From: the human T2T-CHM13v2.0 reference genome, Homo sapiens
Assembly: GCF_009914755.1 (NCBI RefSeq)
Contig: NC_060928.1
Length of the DNA: 64,000 bases
Strand: one strand, 5' to 3'
Program-made: the position numbers and the translations under genes
In this document: positions 4,719 through 61,693 of the stretch, piece after piece
Layout of the letters: each line of letters opens with the position of its first letter
Position numbering within the stretch: position 1 is the first letter of the stretch
Notes under the pieces: generated by a model
Database searches by the model: none
Seen by the model: the letters and a program-made list of their open reading frames with translations, nothing else
What the model was told of the DNA's origin: nothing

Positions 4719-4814
4719 CATTCAATCTGCTTGTCTATGGCTTTTATTCTATATGACAAACAAAACAAATACACCAAAGAACAACAATAGCAACAACCAC
4801 CTCTGTAACAACAC
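4719..4814 (+). repeat. Left arm of ~100-bp dispersed inverted repeat (partner 8491-8590)
   Basis: cattcaatctgcttgtctatg...ccacctctgtaacaacac is the reverse complement of 8491-8590 apart from a few substitutions and a 4-bp indel. Confidence 0.95.
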
Positions 4815-8266: not shown

Positions 8267-8491
8267 CAGATTAAGTATCCCTTATCCAAAATGCTTGGGA
8301 TCAGAAGTATTTTGGATTTTAATTTTGGAGGAATTTTTGGAATATTTGTATTATATATTTACCACTTTTGCATTCCTAGTCCAAAAATCTGAAATCCAAA
8401 ATTCTCCAAAGAGCATTTCCCTTAAGAGTCATGTTGATGTTCAAAAAGTTGTGAAGTTTGGATCATTTTCCAGATACAGATACTCAACCTG
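8267..8491. mobile_element. Tigger4a (MER46/Zombi) MITE
   Basis: TIRs cagattaagtatccc / gatactcaacctg after a TA; body aaatgcttgggatcagaagt...gagcatttccc. Confidence 0.88.
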
Positions 8492-8590
8492 TGTTGTTAC
8501 AGAGGTGGTTGTTGCTATTGCTGTTCTTTGGTGTATTTGTTTTGTTTGTCAAATAGAAGAAATAAAAGGCATAGACAAGCAGATTGAATG
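8491..8590 (-). repeat. Right arm of ~100-bp dispersed inverted repeat (partner 4719-4814)
   Basis: gtgttgttacagaggtgg...gacaagcagattgaatg is the reverse complement of 4719-4814. Confidence 0.95.
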
Positions 8591-28485: not shown

Positions 28486-31150
28486 AGTTTAGAATAAGAT
28501 TCAATTTTACTCTACATCCAACCTATTAAGTTAGCTGTACCAGACTGTTCTTATGCTGCTGTAAGAAATACCTGAGACTGGGTAATTTATAAAGGAAAAA
28601 GGTTTAATTGCCTCACAGTTCCACATTGCTAGGAGGACTCAGGAAGTTACAATCATGGTGGAAGGCAAAGGAGAAGCAGGTACCTTCTTCACAGGGTGGG
28701 AGGATAGAGCAAGTGCAAGCAGGGGAAATGCCAGATGCTTATAAAATCATCAGATCTCATGAGACTCACTATCATGAGAGTAGCATGGTCCCCATGATCC
28801 AATTACCTCCACCTGGTCCTGCCCTTGACACGTGGCGATTATGGGGAATACAGTTCAAGATGAGATTCTGTTTGGGGACATAGCCAAACCATATTATTAT
28901 CCCTGGCCTCTCCTAAGTCTCATGTCCTCACATTTTAAAACACAACCATGCCTTTCCAACAGTCCCCCAAAGTCTCAGCTCATTCCAGCATTAACCCAAA
29001 AGTCCAAGTTCAAAGTCTCATATGAAAGAAGACAAGTCCCTTTTGCCTATGAGCCTGTAAAATCAAAAGCAAGTTAGTTACTTCCTAGATACAATAGGGG
29101 TATAGCTATTGGGTACATGTACCCATTCCAAATGGGAGAAATTGGCCAAAAGAAAGGGGCTATAGGACCTATGCAACTCCAAAATCCAATAGGGCAGTCA
29201 TTAAATCTTAAAGTTCCAAAATTATATCCTTTGACTCCATGTCTCACATCCAGATCACAGTTATGCAAGAGGTGGCCCCCACAGCCTTGGGCAACTCCAT
29301 CTCTGTGGCTTTGCAGGGTACAGCCCCACTCCTGGCTGCTTTCACAGGCTAGCGTTGACTCTCTGTGGCTTTTCCAGTGCACAGTGCAAGCTGTTGATGG
29401 ATCTACCATTCTGAGGTCTGGAGGATGGCCCTCTTCTCACAGCTCTACTAAGACAGTGCCCCAGTGGGGACGCTGTGTGGGGACTCTAACCCCACCTTTC
29501 CTTTTTGCACTACCCTAGCAGAGGTTCTGCATGAGGGCTCTGCTCCTGTAGCAAACTTCTACCTAGACATCCAGGTGTTTCTATACATTCTCTGAAATCT
29601 AGACAGGGACTCCTCAACCTCAGTTTTTGACTCCTCTGCACCCACAGGCTCAACACCACATGGAAGCCACCGAGGCTTGGGGCTTTCACCCTCTGAAGCC
29701 ATGACCCAAGTTGTACCTTGGCCCCTTTTAGCCACTGCTGGAATTTAAGCAGCTGGGCACAGGGCACCATTGTCCTGAGGCTGCACAGAGCAGGGGGTCC
29801 TGGGCCTGGCCCACAAAACTATTTTTCCCTCCTAGGCCTCCAGACCTGTAATGAGAGGGGCTGCCATGTAGGTCTTTGACTTGCCCTGAAGACATTTTTC
29901 CTATTGTCTTAGTGATTAACATTTGCCTGCTCGTTACTTATGCAAATTTATGCAGTCAGCTTAAATTTCTCTCCAGAAAATGGGCTTTTATTTTCTATAA
30001 CATCATCAGGCTGCAAATTTTCCAAACTTTTATGTTCTGCTTTTGTTTTAATGCTTTACCACTTCCGCCAGAAACCCTAAATCATCTCTCTCAAGTTCAA
30101 AATTCCACAGCTCCCTAGGGCAGAGACAAAATGCCATCAGTCTCTTTGCTAAAGCATAGCAAGAGTGACCTTTGCTCCATTTCCCACCAAGTTCTTCATC
30201 TCCATCAGAGACCACCTTTGCCTGGATGTAATTGTTTATATCGTTATCAGCATTTTCGTCAAAACCATTCAACAAGTCTCCAGTAAGTTCCAAACTTTCC
30301 CACATTTTTCTGCCTTCTTCCAAGCTCTCCAAACTGTTCTAACCTCTTCCTGTTACCCAGTTTCAAAGTCACTTCCACATTTTGGGGTATCCTTACAGCA
30401 GTGTCACACTACCTTCGTACCAACTTACTATATTAGTTCATTCTCATGGTGCTATTAAGACTGGGTGATTTATAAAGGAAGGGGGCTTAATTGACTCACC
30501 CTTCCCCATGTCTTAGGAGGCCTCAGGAAACTTACAATCATGGTAAAAGGCAAAGGAGAAGCAGGCACCTTCTTCACAGGGCAGCAGGATGGACTGAGTG
30601 CAAGCAGGGGAAATGCCAGACACTTATAATACCGTCAGATCTCATGAGACTCACTCACCATCAGGAGAACAGCATGAGGGAATCTGTCCCCATGATCCAA
30701 TTAGCTCCACCTGGTCCCACCCTTGACACATGGAGAATGTGGGGATTACAATTCAAGATGATATTTTAGGTAGAGACATGGCCAAACCAAATCATTAACC
30801 TATTATTGTTTTATGATGTAAACAGAATATGTGAGACTTCTGGATTAGATTTAAAAGACAGCACTTCAAGTAACATAAGCATTGGCATGTACCTCAATTC
30901 CCTTTCCAGACAAGTCCCAAAGAAGCAATATAGGGGCTAGATCAATATTGCACATTCAGTAGGTTTGCATCACAGCTGAGGGACACGGACCTAGGAAATC
31001 TACCCCTTTCAGACTAAGCAATAGGAAGCCTGCTTTTGGTTCTAGGAGGTGATATTACCTCATCTCTCAAAGTTGTTTACCCCAAACACAATCATGAAAA
31101 ATGGTCCAGTTTAAAAAGAAGTGGTCAAGCCTTGCAATCTTGGCATATAT
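28486..31150 (-). mobile_element. LTR40-like ERVL LTR, split by THE1D
   Basis: Reverse complement of 30795-31150 (atgccaagattgcaaggc...gatgaggtaat...cctcagctgtgatgcaaacc) joins 28486-28535 (gctaactt...gtagagtaaaat). Confidence 0.72.
28536..30794 (-). mobile_element. Full-length THE1D MaLR element (LTR 28536-28896, internal 28897-30428, LTR 30429-30794)
   Basis: Two THE1D LTRs (gagtgcaagcaggggaaatgccaga), ~1.53-kb internal region with the THE1-int peptide RKMWESLEL...WSKGHSCY; TSD ttagc/ttaac. Confidence 0.93.
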
Positions 31151-37201: not shown

Positions 37202-39197
<1,996 letters not shown>

Positions 39198-46679: not shown

Positions 46680-47760
46680 GGTCCCTTTTCCTTTTCTTTC
46701 AATTACACTGCCTTCCATCCCATCACACACGAGTCTAGCATAGATAAACTAATCAGTGGAAAATCCTGTCTTTCATCTTGTCAGATTTCTCTACGGCATT
46801 TGATAATGGTCAATTTTTTTCTCTTTGTTGAAACACAAAACTTGTTACAGTTACATGATTCCACTCCCTTACCATTCTCTCCTAGTTTACTTTGTAGCTC
46901 TTAGTGTCCTTTTATTTTTTATTACTTCTGTTTTGCTTTGAGTAATATTATTCTTTAGAAATCTAGCCTTAGCTTCTCCAACCCTTAGTCTTAGCTCCTA
47001 TTATTTTCTGTCTACTCCTGTTACCCTTGACCTAACCATTGTCATCACTCAACACTCAACTGGATTGCTCAAATATTCGACTACTCATTCATCTTCCAGA
47101 TTCCACATCAATTCTTTCTTCAATTCCTATACACAGTAGCAGGGACAACTTTCTTAAAACTATAAATCAGATTTGGACAAAATCTTCTTGAAAGAGTCAT
47201 AAAGATTCTCACTGTACACAGTTCTACTTGTTTCACTCCCATTTAGATGCTTTATCTGAGATCCACTCCCCAATGGAGTCCTGAATGCTAATCTCTTGTT
47301 TCCTGGGAACCCGAACTAAAACAACTGTTCCGAATCTGCATATCACAAAACAATTATACCTGTCTTACTATACAGTTCTTTATTTTCTTGAATTAGCAAG
47401 AATATTTTAATTTGCCCTTGATTGTCCTGGAAGGTGCTTCTCTTCATGTTTGTCATTTTGGTCTCAGCTTGAATGCTACCTCCACAGAGAGAGCAGCCTG
47501 AAGTAAATTCTTCCTATCATTGTGTTTCTTCCATATTCCACCATATTGAAAACTTCCCTCTTTTTCTTAATGCATATCTTTATGTCTGAATTTACTTTGT
47601 TTGCTTCTTTATGTATTGTTCATTTCCCCTCCAGATAGAATATAAGCTACCAGAGGGAAGGTAGCTAATCTATCTCATTTATCTATCCATCTTATTTATC
47701 AATGAATTTAGCACATATAGTAGGCACTCAATAACTATTTATTAAGGAATAAATGAATAG
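46680..47760 (+). mobile_element. L2 fragments
   Basis: ctctacggcatttgata...; 3' end gcacatatagtaggcactcaataactatttattaaggaataaatgaat. Confidence 0.7.
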
Positions 47761-48299
47761 GTATTTCATTTATTCATTCACTCTAAATTGACAAATTCAC
47801 ATTCTCAAGCATCTGAAAGCTCCAAATAACTGTAAAATTGATGATGTACAAATCTTAGCTAGTGTTTTAATTTTCTGAGTTACTGAGTTTTCCATCTCAA
47901 GTGACTTCATTATTTGACATGCCACACTAAATTTAGGGTTATTTTAGCTCAAAGTAGTGTATTACTCATTTTTATTCTTTATTTCTGTCTCATCATCTTA
48001 TTATTAATTGGTCACTAAATGTAAAGTTGGTCACTTCATTATCATTAGATTCTACTCACTTTATTTATATGAATTGACAAAGTATTAAATCAGGCTTCAT
48101 CATCTCTTTCCTGAACTACTGTGATAGATATATAACAAATTTTACTCCTCGCTAAATTTTTCCTAATTATGCTAATTATTTTCACCTTACACTATCTAGG
48201 CAGTTTATTATTAACAATACTATAAAATCTATTTAAATAACTGAGTGTCTCATGCATAGTGTATACTGTTTAGGTATCTGTATATATTTTCTCTTGTTT

Positions 48300-48706
48300 C
48301 CTTCATTCCCATACTGAGATACTATTCCATACTTCCAATAAGTAGCAGGGTTTTATCCCCGCATATGTACCTACTGTTTATTTTGCTTGAAATGTCTTTC
48401 CTCTTCTTCATCTGGAAAATTGTTCAGATCTCACTAAAATATTACTTATTTTGGAAACACTTCCTGATTTCTCTACATATAGACTTTTTTCTGTGATATA
48501 GTAGAATTTTGTACATGCTTGTATTTCAGTAAACTTCAATTTCTTTGTACTTATTACTTGCTAAATCTACCTTCTTCAGAAACTTATAGTTGTTAAGGGA
48601 AGGAGTATGTCTTATTACTCTTTGTCTTACTAGTTCCCAGTACAGTGTTTGGCACTTATATTGCACTCATAAAGCACTAAAGGAATAAATGAACGCATGA
48701 TGAATG
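48300..48706 (+). mobile_element. L2 (b/c-like) 3' end
   Basis: ttcccagtacagtgtttggcacttata...gaataaatgaa. Confidence 0.65.
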
Positions 48707-48778
48707 GGAAGTGTGGCAGGGTCAAAGGAAAGAAAGTGATATAAGAACTTAATACCATACATTTTATTTCTAAGAGCT

Positions 48779-49138
48779 TGTAAAAATAATGCTGGGGAAA
48801 TACAGAAAATGTTTCACAATCAAATAAAAAATAATGTAGTTACTTGGGCTGGAGAGTGGGTCAAAAGATTAGTAGTGTCTGATTTAAAACCAACAAGTAA
48901 GTACCAAGTTATATATAAATAGAATTTAAACTTTTATTTTAAAACAGCATTACAATCAACATTCCCAGAAAATTTCCACAATGAAGAAGCTGGATATTTC
49001 AAATTAATAAAAATAAAATTATCTAATGGAATGATAATTTTTAAGAATATACACTGTGATACTAAATATCATTTGTATATAACTGTTTATTTCTGAGAAG
49101 CCATATGATAGTCACTTTATGATCTTTGTTTCACATAG
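48779..49138 (+). repeat. Left arm of 360-bp near-perfect inverted repeat
   Basis: Reverse complement of 50026-50385 with 3 substitutions and no indels (compared by eye). Confidence 0.98.
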
Positions 49139-49644
49139 TACCAGAATAGTTGATAATATCTCAAAAGATATTTTCAATGTTGATTAACTGATATCTCAAA
49201 AGATATTTTAATATCAATATTGATTACATTCAAATTTTGACCTTATGGATAAGTGAGGAAGGAACTGTTACCATGATATCTCTTTAATACTGCAATGCTT
49301 CTACATCACTATATTTTATCTCACAGTTATTGAGGTGAAAACATATTTTAAATACTTTAAATAATTGAGAAAACAAAACATACATAAAATAATATTGTTT
49401 AATATTTATATACTTTATTGGTAAAAAAGAATGAAATAAGAATTAATTCACTGTTTAAATATTTTTAAGATCAGAAATAAAATTAAAATTAAGCTATGTA
49501 TGTGTATGTGTTTTTAAAAGGATGAATTAATGTCTAAACAATGTTCAAAATCATAAAATGGAATTCTTAGTTTAAGTGGTATCAGATGTGTATGTAGAGT
49601 GTGAGAGTTAGCTATTAATGGTATTAAATATACCATTAATAAGC

Positions 49645-49840
49645 TTTTTAACCATTTCAGTTGTGTGACTTTAAGAAAGTTACATCACTTCTTTCAGCTT
49701 CAGTTTCCCCTTGGGAAAAATAGGGAGAGTAGTAGTGGGTATGTCAGATGGCTATAAAAATAAAAGAGGTTATAATACATGCATGATGCTTAGCCTGGTG
49801 TCTAATTCATGATTATAATAGTTGTTAAAATTATTATTAT
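49645..49840 (+). mobile_element. MIR SINE inside the inverted-repeat spacer
   Basis: agttgtgtgactttaagaaagttacatcacttctttcagcttcagtttcccc. Confidence 0.75.
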
Positions 49841-50025
49841 TACTGGATAGTGTATAGAAGAAATGCACCTTTAAACAAACAGTCCTACTTGATTGAAATT
49901 TGGTTGTTTATATTAAGTAGTAAAACATGGGTATTTTAACCAAGTAAATCCACCTGTAGCAATTATTTTAATTATAGTCACTATGAATAAATACAATTCT
50001 TGAACTCACCAGTTTACATATAAAT

Positions 50026-50385
50026 CTATGTGAAACAAAGATCATAAAGTGACTATCATATGGCTTCTCAGAAATAAACAGTTATATACGAATGATATTT
50101 AGTATCACAGTGTATATTCTTAAAAATTATCATTCCATTAGATAATTTTATTTTTATTAATTTGAAATATCCAGCTTCTTCATTGTGGAAATTTTCTGGG
50201 AATGTTGATTGTAATGCTGTTTTAAAATAAAAGTTTAAATTCTATTTATATATAACTTGGTACTTACTTGTTGGTTTTAAATCAGACACTACTAATCTTT
50301 TGACCCACTCTCCAGCCCAAGTAACTACATTATTTTTTATTTGATCGTAAAACATTTTCTGTATTTCCCCAGCATTATTTTTACA
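50026..50385 (-). repeat. Right arm of 360-bp near-perfect inverted repeat
   Basis: ctatgtgaaacaaag...cagcattatttttaca is the reverse complement of 48779-49138. Confidence 0.98.
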
Positions 50386-52152
50386 TTATTTTACTTATTC
50401 ATGTCTAAATAAAATAGTAATTGTAGATAAACAGCTTCAACAATCTTAGATGTCCTGAAATTTTACTTTTTTGCCATCACACTAAATAGTGCTAGAGTAG
50501 AATATATAAACCATCTTTTCAGGCCAAAATTTAATGATGGAGTATGTACTATCCATTGTAAATAAAACAAATTTTTGATGAATGAAAAACAAATGACTTC
50601 TCAGAAAGCTCTGCTGTGCAACATCTGAAATAAAAAGATTAATCATTCGTCATTTTAAGTTATAATGATGCAGATGTACCCTTTTACTGTGCCTCAAAGG
50701 AAATGCTGCTGACATAAAATGCAGATGATCTAGAATTATATTCTCTATTTTTTTGAAATATAATTGCTACAAAGATCTAGGTTGCAAGAAGAACAATTTG
50801 TAGAGGACAATGTCTTTGGAAAGTAACAGTAACATAGAGAAGACATAGCATGGCATATCTGTAAAAATGGACTGAAAACATGAAGAAGTTAAAAAATTAG
50901 AAGGGGAAAAATTAGAAAATCAGAAACATGAATAAACGTGTTAAAACTGTATACTATTAAATTATATTTCTGATATCTAAAAATGAATTAAAACATTCAA
51001 GAAGTTATTTTTATTTCATTGCATATAAGCTATATTTCATTGTTTTTAAGACATATTTGTAAAATTAGCATTTGTTTCTACCCTAAATTCCCAAAAGACT
51101 TAAACTTGCTGTGTTAGAGCCCATGGGAGAAGGGAGGCTAACCTGAAGGAGAGGAGAATGATGGAATATTCTGTTGTTTCTAACAGAGTTCGATGCCACC
51201 TACCTGAATTGAAAATATGATCAACCATATCTAGGGATTGTTGACTTCTCTACCCATCCTCCATCCAGGATAGATAATTGAAAACAAAATAAGTAATTCA
51301 ACTACAAAAAGCAAATTAAGATATCAGTTTCTAGCTTTCACCTAATAATTGAGATGATTGGGTTCATAGAAATGTCCCTACTAAATAGATGTAATTGTTT
51401 TAATTTTAAGCTGAATGATTTTTCATAAATCACAAATGTAAGAGGAAAAAAATTCAATGCAATAAAATATAATAGGCTATAAATTTCCATATACATTTAT
51501 GAATTTTAGATGAAGAGTGATTCTTTTTTATTATCAGTCATTGAATCTTGTTTAAATCTATTATTTGAGGCCAAGTTATAAAATTCAAAGAACTTCTCAT
51601 TGCAAATTCTTTCTCTTGATTGTTGGTATTGATTTAAATCTTTCAGAGAGAGGCCACTTATTATATTCAGCATTCCATCCATTATTGCCTCTGCCAGCTT
51701 TTAAAACTTATCATCAATATATTGCAGGATATAGTGAATTGCAAATAGCTAAAGTGTAATAAAGCATGCATTTTCCGATGTAAACATATTTAAATAGTAT
51801 GCATGTAAAGCATCTCTTTTAAAGTTAGGTTCCTGTTACAAAACGTAGCAATTACTATATGGAAAGCCAATAAAAGAAAAAGAGTATCAGTACAAATAGT
51901 ACATAATAGTTATCTACAGCAGATAATTCCCACCCCAATTTTTTTATATACTGCAGGAGATTTTTACTCTTTACCTACAGTATACATTACAGAAAGGTTT
52001 GTACCTGACTAGAAATCATATATTTTGATGCCTGGTCCGGTAATCTGAAACTAGAAATATTTTCTATATAAAATACATTTTTACCTGCAAGTGATGGTGA
52101 TGATGATGATGACAAAGATAATGATTATTGCAAGCCACAGAAGATGAGACTA

Positions 52153-55805: not shown

Positions 55806-57025
<1,220 letters not shown>

Positions 57026-58504: not shown

Positions 58505-60681
58505 TGATGGCACAGTAGCCATCTGGAGTGGCCACTGCACAGATGCCAGCTGCAGCAGCAGGGGAAGCATGGCCAGGGCTGTATGCTCTATGGATCTGGC
58601 AGGGGTCAGGAACAGGTGATCCCAGTGGAAGCCCTGCCTCTTACTGAGTTGGTGGGACGAGAGCCTGTGCTCCCATGCACAGATGCTGCCATCCAGTCGT
58701 GCCTCAGAACCCAGAAATCCCTGTGCTCTCAGGGATGCAGGAAGCCCCCCGAACCCGCAGGCTTGGAAGGGCCTGCTCCTGCTCCCTGGCCTCTCCCCAT
58801 TCCCCGTAAGTGCTCCAGTACAGAACAAAGTTGTGGCTGAGCCTGGATGCTGTTGTGACCCTGCCAGGTGTGTAAACACTTGGGGCGGTGCTGACATGCC
58901 AGCCCCCTGCCTCCTCAGCCCCCTCTGGACTTTGGGCAACAACAAGCACTGAAGGAAGACCAAGGGGCTAAAGATGACTCAGAGTGGGCCTGCATTTTCC
59001 CCGTAGTACAGACAACCTGGGTGCCATGGAGGGCATGTTAATAGTGGCAGGAAGCAGACAGGTACTTAGGCAGGAAGGGGTGGGTCCCTAGTGAGACCCC
59101 ACCTTCAAGCCAGGGATGGCCTGAGCCTGGAACTGGCAGGTGGAGTCCATGACCCAGAGTAAGTACTTCATTGATGACTTTTGGCCAACTGAATGGTGCT
59201 TCTTTCAGGCACAATTGTGGCCACCTATAGACCAATCAGCACTCACTTCCTTCCTTCAGTGCACATAAAAACCCCAGGCTAAGCCAGGCTCAGATACTCA
59301 TCAGGACTTCCTGCCTGCAAATAAGAGCTACCCACTTTGGGTCTCCTCTACACTCATCAGGACTACCTGCCTGTGGATAGGAGCTACCCTCTTTCAGTGT
59401 TCTCTACACTTGTCAAGATGAGCTGCCTGCAGAAAGGAGCTACCCACTTGGGTCTCCTGAGAGCTGTTCTGTCACTCAATAAAGCTACTCTGACTTGCTC
59501 ACCCTCCAGTTGTCCACCTAACCTCATTCTTCCTGGGTGCAGAACAAGAACTCAGGACCCAACAAATAAAGGGAGCAAATGGAACTGTAACATCTTCTTG
59601 GTTGGCTTGCTGAGCTGTGGGCAGTGACATGCTCTCAAACTGCAAGAGTCAAGTGGCAACCTTTTTGGAGACCCAGACCTCAAGATTCCCTGAGCCAGAG
59701 CTGCTGTAACACTATAGCCCTCCCACTCTCCATCTGTGCTGGGTGGCCACCCCAAACAATGGGAAGCAGTACTGGGGCCAGGCCAGCCAAGGAGCTGTGG
59801 GCCAGAGTGGGTGGAAGGCCTGAAAGGGCTATAACACAAACAGACTGACATGCAGCCTGCTGTTCACAATGCTGAGGGTGATGAGAAGGAGAGAAGAGCT
59901 GTGGCCCTTCTGGGAGTCCAGACCTCAGTGCTTCCCAGGGCTGTGACATGCTGTTACACCCTCTTTGGGTCTCTGCAGTTTCTGGTGCCTCTGAGCTTTC
60001 AGGAGCCACTGTGTTACCCATTGCTCACAGTGGAAATCACTTGTGGTATGCCCGGTCTAGCCACAGCCTTGCATGGAGTCAGTGATTGTGCCAGTGTGTG
60101 GAGCTGCCCACCCAATCCCATCAGCTAGTATGCCTGGCCGTGTGCAGTGGCCAGACCCCAAACCCGACAGTGAGTGGCCAACTTGGGAACCTGAAGTGGG
60201 TAGCCATCTTTATGGCTGAGTTTAGAGGTTTTATGGGTTTAGAATTGGGGAATGCATGCTGTTTGGTCCCTGGGTGGTCTGTAAAAAAGCACCATTTGAT
60301 TGGTTAAAAGGCATCATCCAGAAGGAACTAATCAAGAGAGGGTGCATGAGATGGGGATAGAAATTCTCACTCTGGTTGTGGACTCTATCCAGAACTGGCT
60401 GTTAGGTTTTCAGGCTTCAGGTTGCCTTTGGCTTGGTTCACACCTCCCTCACTGCTCTGTGCCTGGCTCACCCTTGGCAGGCATGGGATACAGGCCGGTA
60501 GCACAAGCCAAGTGCTCTGTGCCTGGCTCACCCTTGGCAGGCATGAGATCCGGGCCAGTAGCACTAGCCAAGCCCTAGTGGGCAGAACAAGTGCGGCAGG
60601 AATGAGCAAAATCCAAGCAGAGGTGCCACAAGCCACAGAGGTTTCTGGCTGGAGAAGTGAAACCCTAAGGATCCTGTGACA
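58505..60681 (+). mobile_element. MER52 (MER52D-like) ERV1 solo LTR
   Basis: tgatggca...ccatctggagtggccactgc start and aggatcctgtgaca end; TSD acat/gcat. Confidence 0.88.
60453..60572 (+). repeat. 60-bp tandem duplication (2 copies) inside MER52
   Basis: tgctctgtgcctggctcacccttggcaggcatg...agccaag occurs twice. Confidence 0.92.
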
Positions 60682-61059: not shown

Positions 61060-61693
61060 CTAGTTCAGTGAGCAGCAGAGAGTGGCCTCCAGCAGCTTTT
61101 CCACTCCCATAGTTCAGAAAGCAGGAGAGAGTGTTACAAACATATTTACTCTCACCATCCACAGCTCAGCAACAGCACCCAGTGGCTTCTTTCACTCCCA
61201 TAGTTTGGTGAGTGGGAGAGAGTGTTACAGCTCTTTTTGCTCCCCCCATTCAGCAGTTTATGGGCTCTTGTCTAGCAACCAAGAAGAATGAGGTATGCAG
61301 ACACCAGAAATGAGCAAGAGAGAATAGAATTTTATTGAGCTACAGAAAGGCTCTCGACAGTGAGTGGGAACCTGAAGTGGGTAGCTGTCTTTGTGGCTGA
61401 GTATGGGGTATTTATGGGCTTTGAATTGGGGAATGCATGCTGATTGGTCTATGGATGGTCTTGGAAGAAGCATCATTTGATTGCATTTGATTGGTTGAAA
61501 GACATCATCCAGAAGGAACCAATCGAGAGAGAGTGCCTGAGATTGGGGATGGAAGTTCTCACTCTGATTGTGAACTCTATCCAGAACTGGCTGTCAGGTT
61601 TTCAGGCTTCAGGCTGTCTTTGGCTTGAATGTTGGATTTCACTGGGGACCCATCTCTGTCTGCCTAAGAATTTGTCTGTCTCCTGTCTTATCA
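61060..61693 (-). mobile_element. ERV1 LTR of the LTR1/LTR27/LTR28/MER50 group
   Basis: Reverse complement starts tgataagacaggagacagacaaattcttaggcagacag; AATAAA on the minus strand near 61330; left end uncertain. Confidence 0.7.

What the first reader, a model, noticed from the sequence alone, without database searches (positions are those of the whole stretch)
48779..50385. 360-bp inverted repeats of apparently unique DNA (99% identical) around an 887-bp spacer: candidate recurrent micro-inversion or gene-conversion unit
Seen: 48779-49138 is the reverse complement of 50026-50385 with no indels and 3 substitutions, at 48815, 48818 and 49074 in the left arm. The central 255 bp are identical, and two of the three differences are CpG in the right arm versus CpA/TpG in the left. 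I do not recognise the arms as a transposon, and I see no TSD or transposase, so this is not obviously a MITE. Established: close, highly identical inverted repeats mediate NAHR inversions that can toggle recurrently, and they are homogenised by arm-to-arm gene conversion. Inference: either a recent inverted duplication, or an older one kept identical by conversion (mismatches lie only toward the arm ends). The spacer may exist in both orientations in populations. If transcribed, it would form a 360-bp dsRNA stem.
Basis: partly seen in the sequence, partly recalled or inferred. Interest (0 to 1): 0.8.

Follow-up and report, generated by a model that had tools for sequence, protein, structure and literature searches.

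The report
Small local inverted duplication, human 4q28.3
A 360-base stretch of unique human DNA is copied in reverse orientation 887 bases away in a gene desert; it looks like an ordinary, probably neutral scar of one old replication or repair error.

Summary
48779-49138 is the reverse complement of 50026-50385 at 357 of 360 positions, with no indels and sharp ends. A whole-genome search of T2T-CHM13 finds only these two copies. There is no target-site duplication, no ORF in the arms and no Rfam match, so it is not a transposon.

Two of the three differences fall on the only two CpGs of the arm. The "identical centre" is therefore not evidence of gene conversion. Without conversion, three differences date the copy to about 10 Myr (support 2.4-26 Myr).

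The pair could act as an NAHR substrate, because validated polymorphic inversions have repeats of 140-418 bp. However, no inversion is listed here in a 612-region catalogue or in a 41-genome T2T callset.

Verdict: a real feature and a new member of a known kind. Interest is low. Primate orthologues and spacer orientation across haplotypes could not be tested here.

The parts
48779..49138 (+). Left arm of the inverted duplication (360 bp, 26% G+C, no CpG)
   Evidence: Only two copies in the genome. No ORF of 40 aa or more.
49139..50025 (.). Spacer (887 bp, 26% G+C) of old local DNA: an AT-rich stretch that NCBI masks at 49334-49529, and a MIR-like piece (family name recalled, not tested)
   Evidence: length, composition. 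(unique apart from one 73-nt, 77% match for 49662-49734). (no self-complementarity beyond a 29-nt local palindrome at about 49613-49641).
50026..50385 (-). Right arm, reverse complement of the left arm; it keeps both CpGs
   Evidence: In some searches the partner match stops exactly at the arm edges.
48815..48818 (.). Two arm-distinguishing sites. At 48815 the left arm has C and the right-arm complement has T (not at a CpG). At 48818 the left arm has CpA where the right has CpG. Partner positions are 50349 and 50346.
49074..49074 (.). Third arm-distinguishing site: left TpG versus right CpG (partner position 50090)
49153..49214 (+). Two near-copies, 35 bp apart, of a short motif that holds a 16-nt mini-palindrome (6-bp stem). 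It starts 15 bp inside the spacer from the left arm's inner end and is a possible fragile or stalling site (inference only).
   Evidence: (family D1) and direct reading.

Best explanation
The structure is the product of one local inverted duplication of unique DNA. During replication, or during repair of a break, a 3' end left its template. It then copied 360 nt from the complementary strand (or from itself after folding back) 887 bp away. Finally it was rejoined at the original site by end joining without microhomology. The spacer is the loop of that event and keeps its ancestral orientation.

The event happened once, probably in the hominid lineage: about 10 Myr ago if the arms have evolved independently. 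The two copies have since diverged by ordinary substitution, two of the three changes being CpG decay in the left arm. The structure is most likely neutral: it lies in a gene desert and has no coding or known RNA content. Today it is a latent substrate for NAHR inversion of the spacer and for arm-to-arm conversion, but neither process is needed to explain what is seen.

Shown: the anatomy, the uniqueness, the absence of transposon features and the compatibility with independent divergence. Inferred: the template-switch or fold-back mechanism, the age, the neutrality, and which arm is the copy (undetermined).
For: Anatomy and uniqueness:
- 357 of 360 positions are identical, with no indels and sharp ends.
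- Only two copies exist in the 3.1-Gb assembly. Four junction-spanning queries hit only themselves and the partner arm, and each partner match ends at the arm edge.
- There is no target-site duplication: the longest flanking direct match is 0, 0 and 2 bp for the whole unit, the left arm and the right arm. No poly-A adjoins the arms.
- 0 of 3 ORFs of 40 aa or more lie in an arm. There are 0 Rfam matches at E up to 1.

Dating:
- Three differences fit independent divergence of about 10 Myr, with support 2.4-26 Myr.
- P(3 or more differences) is 0.004 at 1 Myr, and P(3 or fewer) is 0.02 at 28 Myr.

Literature:
- Sudmant et al. 2015 (PMC4617611, passages read): 54% of 229 verified 'inversion' sites were inverted duplications. 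[quoted passage not shown] That is exactly this geometry.
- Hermetz et al. 2014 (PMC3907307, passages): spacers between direct and inverted copies are 766-70,466 bp in human fold-back duplications.
- Yeast fold-back insertions (PMC11724301, passages): synthesis from a folded-back end is followed by end joining with 0-5 bp microhomology.

Local context: a second, older unique inverted pair (about 100 nt, 93%, 3,676 bp apart) lies in the same window. This fits a recurring mutational class.
Against: - The inverted repeat does not extend even 1 bp into the spacer, so there is 0 bp of inverted microhomology where a fold-back primer should have annealed. Hermetz et al. found 2-8 bp at 13 of 21 such junctions, against 0 bp in 55% of simulated junctions. 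This counts mildly against simple fold-back priming.
- Two of three differences at CpG is more than the CpG share of the mutation rate predicts (P = 0.017-0.056). It is a mild oddity that none of the readings considered here explains.
- With one haplotype and no outgroup, I cannot show that the spacer kept its ancestral orientation, which arm is the copy, or that conversion has not reset the clock.
- The mutation rates in the dating are recalled values, not from a call.
- The 1000 Genomes class is defined on polymorphic sites, and I could not show that this site is or was polymorphic.
Confidence: 0.45

Rival explanations
1. A one-off micro-inversion that created its own inverted repeat. Staggered single-strand breaks 360 bp apart at one breakpoint and a near-blunt break at the other were filled in, and the segment was rejoined in reverse. 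This gives arm - inverted spacer - inverted copy of the arm. In this reading the repeat is a consequence of an inversion, not its cause, and the spacer is inverted relative to the ancestor.
For: The end product is identical to what is seen: inverted duplication of non-repetitive DNA flanking a segment, with blunt junctions and no microhomology. Ranz et al. 2007 (PMC1885836, abstract and passages) found such inverted duplications at 17 of 29 Drosophila inversions. For 12 of these, only one breakpoint's sequence was duplicated. The lack of priming microhomology fits end joining better than fold-back priming.
Against: The model's support comes from Drosophila inversions of much larger size. Unwinding 360 bp between nicks is a difficulty that the authors themselves note. 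In humans, the class documented at this size is described as an inserted inverted duplicate. I saw no human-specific support in any call.
Confidence: 0.25
2. The inverted repeat is old, its arms are kept about 99% alike by arm-to-arm gene conversion, and the 887-bp spacer flips recurrently by NAHR, so both orientations exist in populations.
For: The geometry lies within the range of validated polymorphic repeat-mediated inversions in Moreira-Pinhal et al. 2026 (PMC13629690, Table S1, part 1 of 43 read). Examples, with repeat and inversion sizes: HsInv0147 (140 bp, 1,550 bp), HsInv0045 (256 bp, 940 bp), HsInv0098 (297 bp, 1,077 bp), HsInv0031 (285/249 bp, 644 bp) and HsInv0193 (418 bp, 618 bp). 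That paper saw both orientations in 155 of 612 regions (abstract). The longest uninterrupted identity here is 255 bp, which is near the minimal tract usually quoted for mammalian homologous recombination (recalled).
Against: - No chr4 row at hg38 130.4-130.99 Mb, and no row with inversion size 886-888 bp or repeat size 359-361 bp, appears in the 612-region Table S1. That table merges 1,528 calls from five studies of 195 people plus paired-end predictions.
- The 373-site, 41-genome T2T callset of Porubsky et al. 2023 (PMC10150506, Table S1) has 10 chr4 rows, the nearest at 91.25 and 160.25 Mb.
- Comparable small candidates in the same table part were monomorphic in 54 people: HsInv0062, HsInv0064, HsInv0032, HsInv0021 and HsInv0049.
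- The 'identical centre' is explained by where the CpGs lie.
- The observed divergence needs no conversion.
Confidence: 0.15
3. A non-autonomous DNA transposon or MITE-like element of 1,607 bp with 360-bp terminal inverted repeats.
For: Only the overall shape: long terminal inverted repeats around a short core.
Against: It is a single copy in the genome, with no other match to the arms, the spacer or the junctions. There is no target-site duplication. The unit holds no transposase-length frame; its only ORF of 40 aa or more is a 40-aa one in the spacer. The spacer carries an older interspersed-repeat-like piece, so it is resident DNA. Human DNA transposons have been extinct for tens of Myr (recalled), which does not fit 99% identical ends.
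Confidence: 0.02
4. An assembly or sequencing artefact: a chimeric fold-back read built into the CHM13 assembly.
For: None specific. Palindromic chimeras are a known long-read artefact (recalled).
Against: The arms differ at three sites, two of them typical germline CpG transitions, whereas an artefactual fold-back copy would be identical. The whole structure is only 1.6 kb, well inside single long reads. I had no reads to check.
Confidence: 0.02

Closest known systems
Small local inverted duplications ('Inverted Dup' / inv-dup class) of the 1000 Genomes structural-variant map (Sudmant et al. 2015, PMC4617611)
   Same: A duplicated stretch under 1 kbp (here 360 bp) inserted in reverse orientation within 5 kbp of the other copy (here 887 bp). 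It is not retrotransposon-derived, and a replication-error origin is suspected.
   Different: That class was defined on sites polymorphic in living humans. This copy is seen in one haplotype and looks millions of years old. I could not find it in the one supplementary file of that paper held here (inconclusive).
Inverted-repeat-mediated (NAHR) polymorphic inversions of the InvFEST / HsInv series, e.g. HsInv0045, HsInv0098, HsInv0193 (PMC13629690, PMC6748972)
   Same: Repeats of a few hundred bp at over 90% identity bracket a segment of about 0.6-1.5 kb. This pair works like a potential substrate of the same kind.
   Different: Those repeats are mostly SINE, LINE or LTR copies or segmental duplications, whereas these arms are unique DNA. 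[quoted passage not shown]
Inversions flanked by inverted duplications from staggered breaks (Ranz et al. 2007, PMC1885836)
   Same: Inverted duplication of ancestrally unique sequence at the ends of a segment, often from one breakpoint only.
   Different: These are Drosophila inversions of far larger size. Whether the human spacer is inverted relative to the ancestor is unknown.
Fold-back inverted duplications with a single-copy spacer (Hermetz et al. 2014, PMC3907307; yeast fold-back insertions, PMC11724301)
   Same: Direct copy, single-copy spacer, inverted copy. The 887-bp spacer lies within the human range of 766-70,466 bp. The second end is captured by end joining.
   Different: The human cases are megabase terminal duplications with deletions, and the yeast cases are 2 to about 150 bp with a 41-nt loop. 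Here 360 bp is duplicated interstitially, and the expected inverted microhomology is absent (0 bp).
Segmental duplications (UCSC/Eichler definition, at least 1 kb and at least 90% identity)
   Same: A low-copy duplication of non-repeat DNA at high identity.
   Different: At 360 bp it is below the 1-kb threshold, so it is invisible to segmental-duplication tracks and to catalogues seeded from them.

Membership tests
Small local inverted duplication (inv-dup class, Sudmant 2015) | Duplicated stretch shorter than 1 kbp | tested here: met
   360 bp.
Small local inverted duplication (inv-dup class, Sudmant 2015) | Second copy in inverted orientation within 5 kbp of the first | tested here: met
   887 bp between the arms, reverse complement.
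Small local inverted duplication (inv-dup class, Sudmant 2015) | Not a product of retrotransposition or a mobile element | tested here: met
   Two copies only in the genome. No target-site duplication and no poly-A. No ORF in the arms. No repeat library was available, so an ancient diverged repeat inside the arm is not excluded.
Small local inverted duplication (inv-dup class, Sudmant 2015) | Presence/absence polymorphism in humans (how the class was ascertained) | not testable with these tools
   Only one human genome is held. The held supplement of PMC4617611 gave no hit, and I do not know whether it includes the site table.
IR-mediated (NAHR) polymorphic inversion | Inverted repeats of over 90% identity at both breakpoints | tested here: met
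   99.2% over 360 bp; longest identical tract 255 bp.
IR-mediated (NAHR) polymorphic inversion | Both orientations of the intervening segment observed | tested here: inconclusive
   No entry in the 612-region catalogue or in the 373-site T2T callset of 41 genomes. The HGSVC3 tables held are cut. There was no direct genotyping.
DNA transposon / MITE with terminal inverted repeats | Multiple copies in the genome | tested here: not met
   Single locus.
DNA transposon / MITE with terminal inverted repeats | Target-site duplication flanking the element | tested here: not met
   0 bp for the whole unit.
Staggered-break inversion with breakpoint duplication | Inverted duplication of unique sequence at the ends of the segment | tested here: met
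Staggered-break inversion with breakpoint duplication | Segment inverted relative to the ancestral arrangement | not testable with these tools
   No primate orthologues are available.
Fold-back inverted duplication | Single-copy spacer between direct and inverted copies | tested here: met
   887 bp, unique. The range in PMC3907307 is 766-70,466 bp.
Fold-back inverted duplication | Short inverted microhomology at the spacer/duplication boundary | tested here: not met
   The repeat ends exactly at 49138/50026; the next pair is T opposite T.
Segmental duplication | Length of at least 1 kb | tested here: not met
   360 bp.

The most novel reading that the evidence does not exclude
The pair is an active flip-flop. 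The 887-bp spacer inverts recurrently by NAHR between 360-bp arms of unique DNA in humans and other apes, and arm-to-arm conversion keeps the arms about 99% alike. The locus has escaped inversion catalogues because it is below the segmental-duplication threshold and carries no transposable-element repeat. It would be among the shortest non-TE repeats known to drive recurrent inversion, and a clean natural system for measuring NAHR and conversion rates near the minimal homology length.
Probability: 0.08. Interest if true: 0.4.

Novelty: new member of a known kind. Interest (0 to 1): 0.15.

Why it matters
It matters little on its own. It is a clean, fixed-looking example of the small local inverted duplications that dominate 'inversion' calls in human population data. 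It shows how such events leave short, near-identical inverted repeats of unique DNA that fall below segmental-duplication thresholds. These repeats are latent substrates for inversion and conversion and, if ever transcribed, for long double-stranded RNA. The locus sits in a gene desert with no annotated gene within 100 kb, so a functional effect is unlikely. Its main use would be as a test site for measuring NAHR and conversion near the minimal homology length.

Tried and rejected
- Transposon or MITE: rejected (single copy, no target-site duplication, no ORF).
- Longer, degraded palindrome: rejected. Neither the flanks nor the two spacer halves show inverted similarity.
- Known RNA family or hairpin RNA gene: 0 Rfam matches in 47500-51700.
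- Deciding which arm is the source from old repeats crossing a junction: four junction-spanning genome searches found no third copy. The genome search sees few diverged repeats, so this led nowhere.
- Conversion inferred from the position of the mismatches: rejected as an argument.
- An APOBEC-type reading of the three C/T differences (all in a TpC context by direct reading): dropped. Two are CpG sites and the changes lie on different strands.
I used the 264 kb in hand.
- Catalogue look-ups that gave nothing usable: the HGSVC3 supplement (file cut when stored) and the Sudmant 2015 supplement (one file; the hg19 position rests on a recalled offset).
- The great-ape comparative paper I recalled was not held under the id I tried.

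Full report
**The observation**

The repeat finder reports arms 48779-49138 and 50026-50385: 360 nt, 99% complementary, with 887 nt between them. A base-by-base comparison gives 357 of 360 identical positions and no indels. The differences are at 48815, 48818 and 49074, and the identical tracts are 36, 2, 255 and 64 nt.

Outside and inside the arms, identity falls at once to about a quarter to a third of the next 80 positions. blastn with 7-nt words finds nothing between the 2-kb flanks (best hit 13 nt, E 0.14). It also finds nothing between the spacer and its own complement beyond a 29-nt local palindrome. The repeat is therefore real, its ends are sharp, and it is not the conserved core of a longer decayed palindrome. 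Arms and spacer are both about 26% G+C, in a window of 35%.

**Copy number**

The window's own assembly (3.1 Gb, 24 contigs) was searched with the arm. Two of 2 candidates were scored, and both are the arms. The spacer has only itself plus one 73-nt, 77% match on another chromosome. The 500 bp to the left has only itself.

Four 400-nt queries centred on the four junctions each hit only themselves and the partner arm. In every case the partner match stopped exactly at the arm edge. The tool warns that it skips very common words and scores only the best candidates. It also found only one relative for what I recognise as a MIR. So 'unique' here means there is no other copy at roughly 77% identity or better; it does not rule out an ancient repeat.

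**What it is not**

- Transposon: there is no target-site duplication. The longest flanking direct match is 0 bp for the unit, 0 bp for the left arm and 2 bp for the right arm, and there is no poly-A.
- Coding: three ORFs of 40 aa or more overlap 48600-50560, and none lies in an arm.
- Known RNA: Rfam gives no match at E up to 1 over 47500-51700.
- Segmental duplication: at 360 bp it is below the 1-kb definition. The catalogue of PMC13629690 also drew candidates from inverted SD pairs of 1-50 kb, and that route cannot include a 360-bp pair.

**The three differences**

The right arm has exactly two CpGs and the left has none. Both CpG sites are differing sites, with CpA or TpG in the left arm. 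Where two of the three mismatches lie is set by where the CpGs are. The single free mismatch has a 36% chance of lying within 65 bp of an end.

I dated the copy with recalled germline rates: 0.4e-9 per non-CpG site per year and 3-6e-9 per CpG cytosine per year. The maximum-likelihood time since duplication, without conversion, is 9.7-10.1 Myr, with support of about 2.4-26 Myr. A copy of 1 Myr or less is unlikely (P of 3 or more differences = 0.004), and so is one of 28 Myr (P of 3 or fewer = 0.02).

Two of three differences at CpG is somewhat more than the CpG share of the rate predicts (P = 0.017-0.056). Neither a one-off copy nor conversion explains this, and I leave it as a mild oddity.

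**How it most likely arose**

The geometry matches a documented class. In the 1000 Genomes structural-variant map, 54% of 229 verified 'inversion' sites were inverted duplications. [quoted passage not shown]

Related mechanisms are described at other scales:
- Human fold-back duplications have single-copy spacers of 766-70,466 bp and 2-8 bp of inverted microhomology at 13 of 21 junctions (PMC3907307, passages).
- Yeast fold-back insertions of 2 to about 150 bp are made by Pol delta synthesis from a folded-back end and capture of the other end by end joining (PMC11724301, abstract and passages).

My best reading is one templated inverted insertion, produced by template switch or fold-back synthesis and then end joining, with the spacer as the loop.

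One point counts against simple fold-back priming. The repeat does not extend a single base into the spacer, where T faces T, so the expected priming microhomology is absent.

**The main rival for the origin**

Staggered breaks can produce an inversion that creates its own flanking inverted duplication of unique DNA. This was inferred for 17 of 29 Drosophila inversions, 12 of them with duplication from only one breakpoint (PMC1885836, abstract and passages). It gives exactly the present structure and fits blunt junctions. It predicts, however, that the spacer is inverted relative to the ancestor.

One haplotype cannot separate the two readings, and it cannot show which arm is the copy. I note, as inference only, that two copies of a 16-nt mini-palindrome lie 18-68 bp inside the spacer from the left arm.

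**Is it an active inversion or conversion unit?**

As a substrate it is plausible. In the part of Table S1 of PMC13629690 that I read (part 1 of 43), validated polymorphic inversions include:

| Inversion | Repeat (bp) | Inverted segment (bp) |
|---|---|---|
| HsInv0147 | 140 | 1,550 |
| HsInv0045 | 256 | 940 |
| HsInv0098 | 297 | 1,077 |
| HsInv0031 | 285/249 | 644 |
| HsInv0193 | 418 | 618 |

Comparable candidates were monomorphic in 54 people: HsInv0062, HsInv0064, HsInv0032, HsInv0021 and HsInv0049.

The locus itself is not listed:
- I estimated the hg38 position as chr4:130.68-130.71 Mb from two anchors, with offsets of 3.326 and 3.350 Mb.
- No chr4 row has a coordinate beginning 1304-1309, and no row of Table S1 has an inversion size of 886-888 bp or a repeat size of 359-361 bp. 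That table has 612 regions, distilled from 1,528 calls in 195 people plus paired-end predictions and SD pairs.
- The T2T-based callset of 373 sites in 41 genomes has 10 chr4 rows, the nearest at 91.25 and 160.25 Mb (PMC10150506, Table S1).
- The HGSVC3 tables held are cut, and the Sudmant supplement held is a single file. Both gave nothing and both are inconclusive.

Absence from catalogues is not genotyping, but a common inversion here would probably have been called.

**Physical properties**

Folded as a single strand, the 1,607-nt unit pairs 358 of 360 arm bases in register as RNA (MFE -753.9 kcal/mol) and 356 of 360 as DNA (-469.7 kcal/mol). The dsRNA stem would therefore form if the unit were transcribed. 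The hub annotation shows no gene within 100 kb.

From memory, not from a call: yeast work on inverted Alu pairs found that fragility falls steeply once the spacer exceeds tens of bases. That would explain why an 887-bp spacer is tolerated.

**Background**

I fetched 200 kb downstream and searched the resulting 264 kb of contiguous sequence against itself. Only two inverted pairs of at least 60 nt, at least 85% identity and at most 5 kb apart exist. One is this pair. The other is 4719-4814 against 8491-8590: 96 and 100 nt, 93%, one 4-nt indel, 3,676 bp apart. Its arms also have only two copies in the genome. None lies in the added 200 kb. The class recurs, but a 360-nt, 99% example is uncommon locally.

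**Verdict**

This is a real, sharply bounded inverted duplication of unique DNA, most likely a single, neutral event of hominid age. It belongs to a known and common mutational class, and it is a latent substrate for NAHR or conversion without shown activity. It is a new member of a known kind and of low interest. The decisive data were not available here: primate orthologues and spacer orientation across human haplotypes.

Noticed in passing
window 4719-4814 and 8491-8590: A second inverted duplication of unique DNA: 96 and 100 nt, 93% identical, with one 4-nt indel, 3,676 bp apart. The whole genome holds only these two copies. It looks like an older, smaller example of the same mutational class.
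   Followed up: partly
window 37241-38421 and 55808-56999: A pair of inverted repeat blocks at 86-95% identity (pieces of 715, 169, 153 and 130 nt, I1, I4, I5, I9), about 17-19 kb apart, inside stretches that NCBI masks. I take them for L1 fragments from memory. They are a longer, if more diverged, potential NAHR substrate than the finding itself.
   Followed up: no
window 60184-60435 and 61365-61627; also 60453-60572: Direct repeats of about 250 nt at 84-92% identity, 1.19 kb apart (D9, D12, D13). Beside them is a tandem pair of 60-nt units at 92% (D15). Their nature was not examined.
   Followed up: no
window 28644-28902 and 30529-30800: Direct repeats of about 115-127 nt at 83-87% identity, 1.9 kb apart (D7, D10). 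Not examined.
   Followed up: no
window 49153-49214: Two near-copies, 35 bp apart, of a motif holding a 16-nt mini-palindrome (6-bp stem, 4-nt loop). They lie just inside the spacer next to the left arm's inner end and could mark a fragile or stalling site (D1).
   Followed up: no
window 49613-49641: A 29-nt local palindrome (83% self-complementary) in the spacer, just upstream of the MIR-like piece.
   Followed up: no
window 48815-49074 versus 50090-50349: Both CpGs of the duplicated sequence decayed in the same (left) arm, and two of the three differences are at CpG. That is more than the CpG share of the mutation rate predicts (P = 0.017-0.056). Unexplained; it may be chance.
   Followed up: partly
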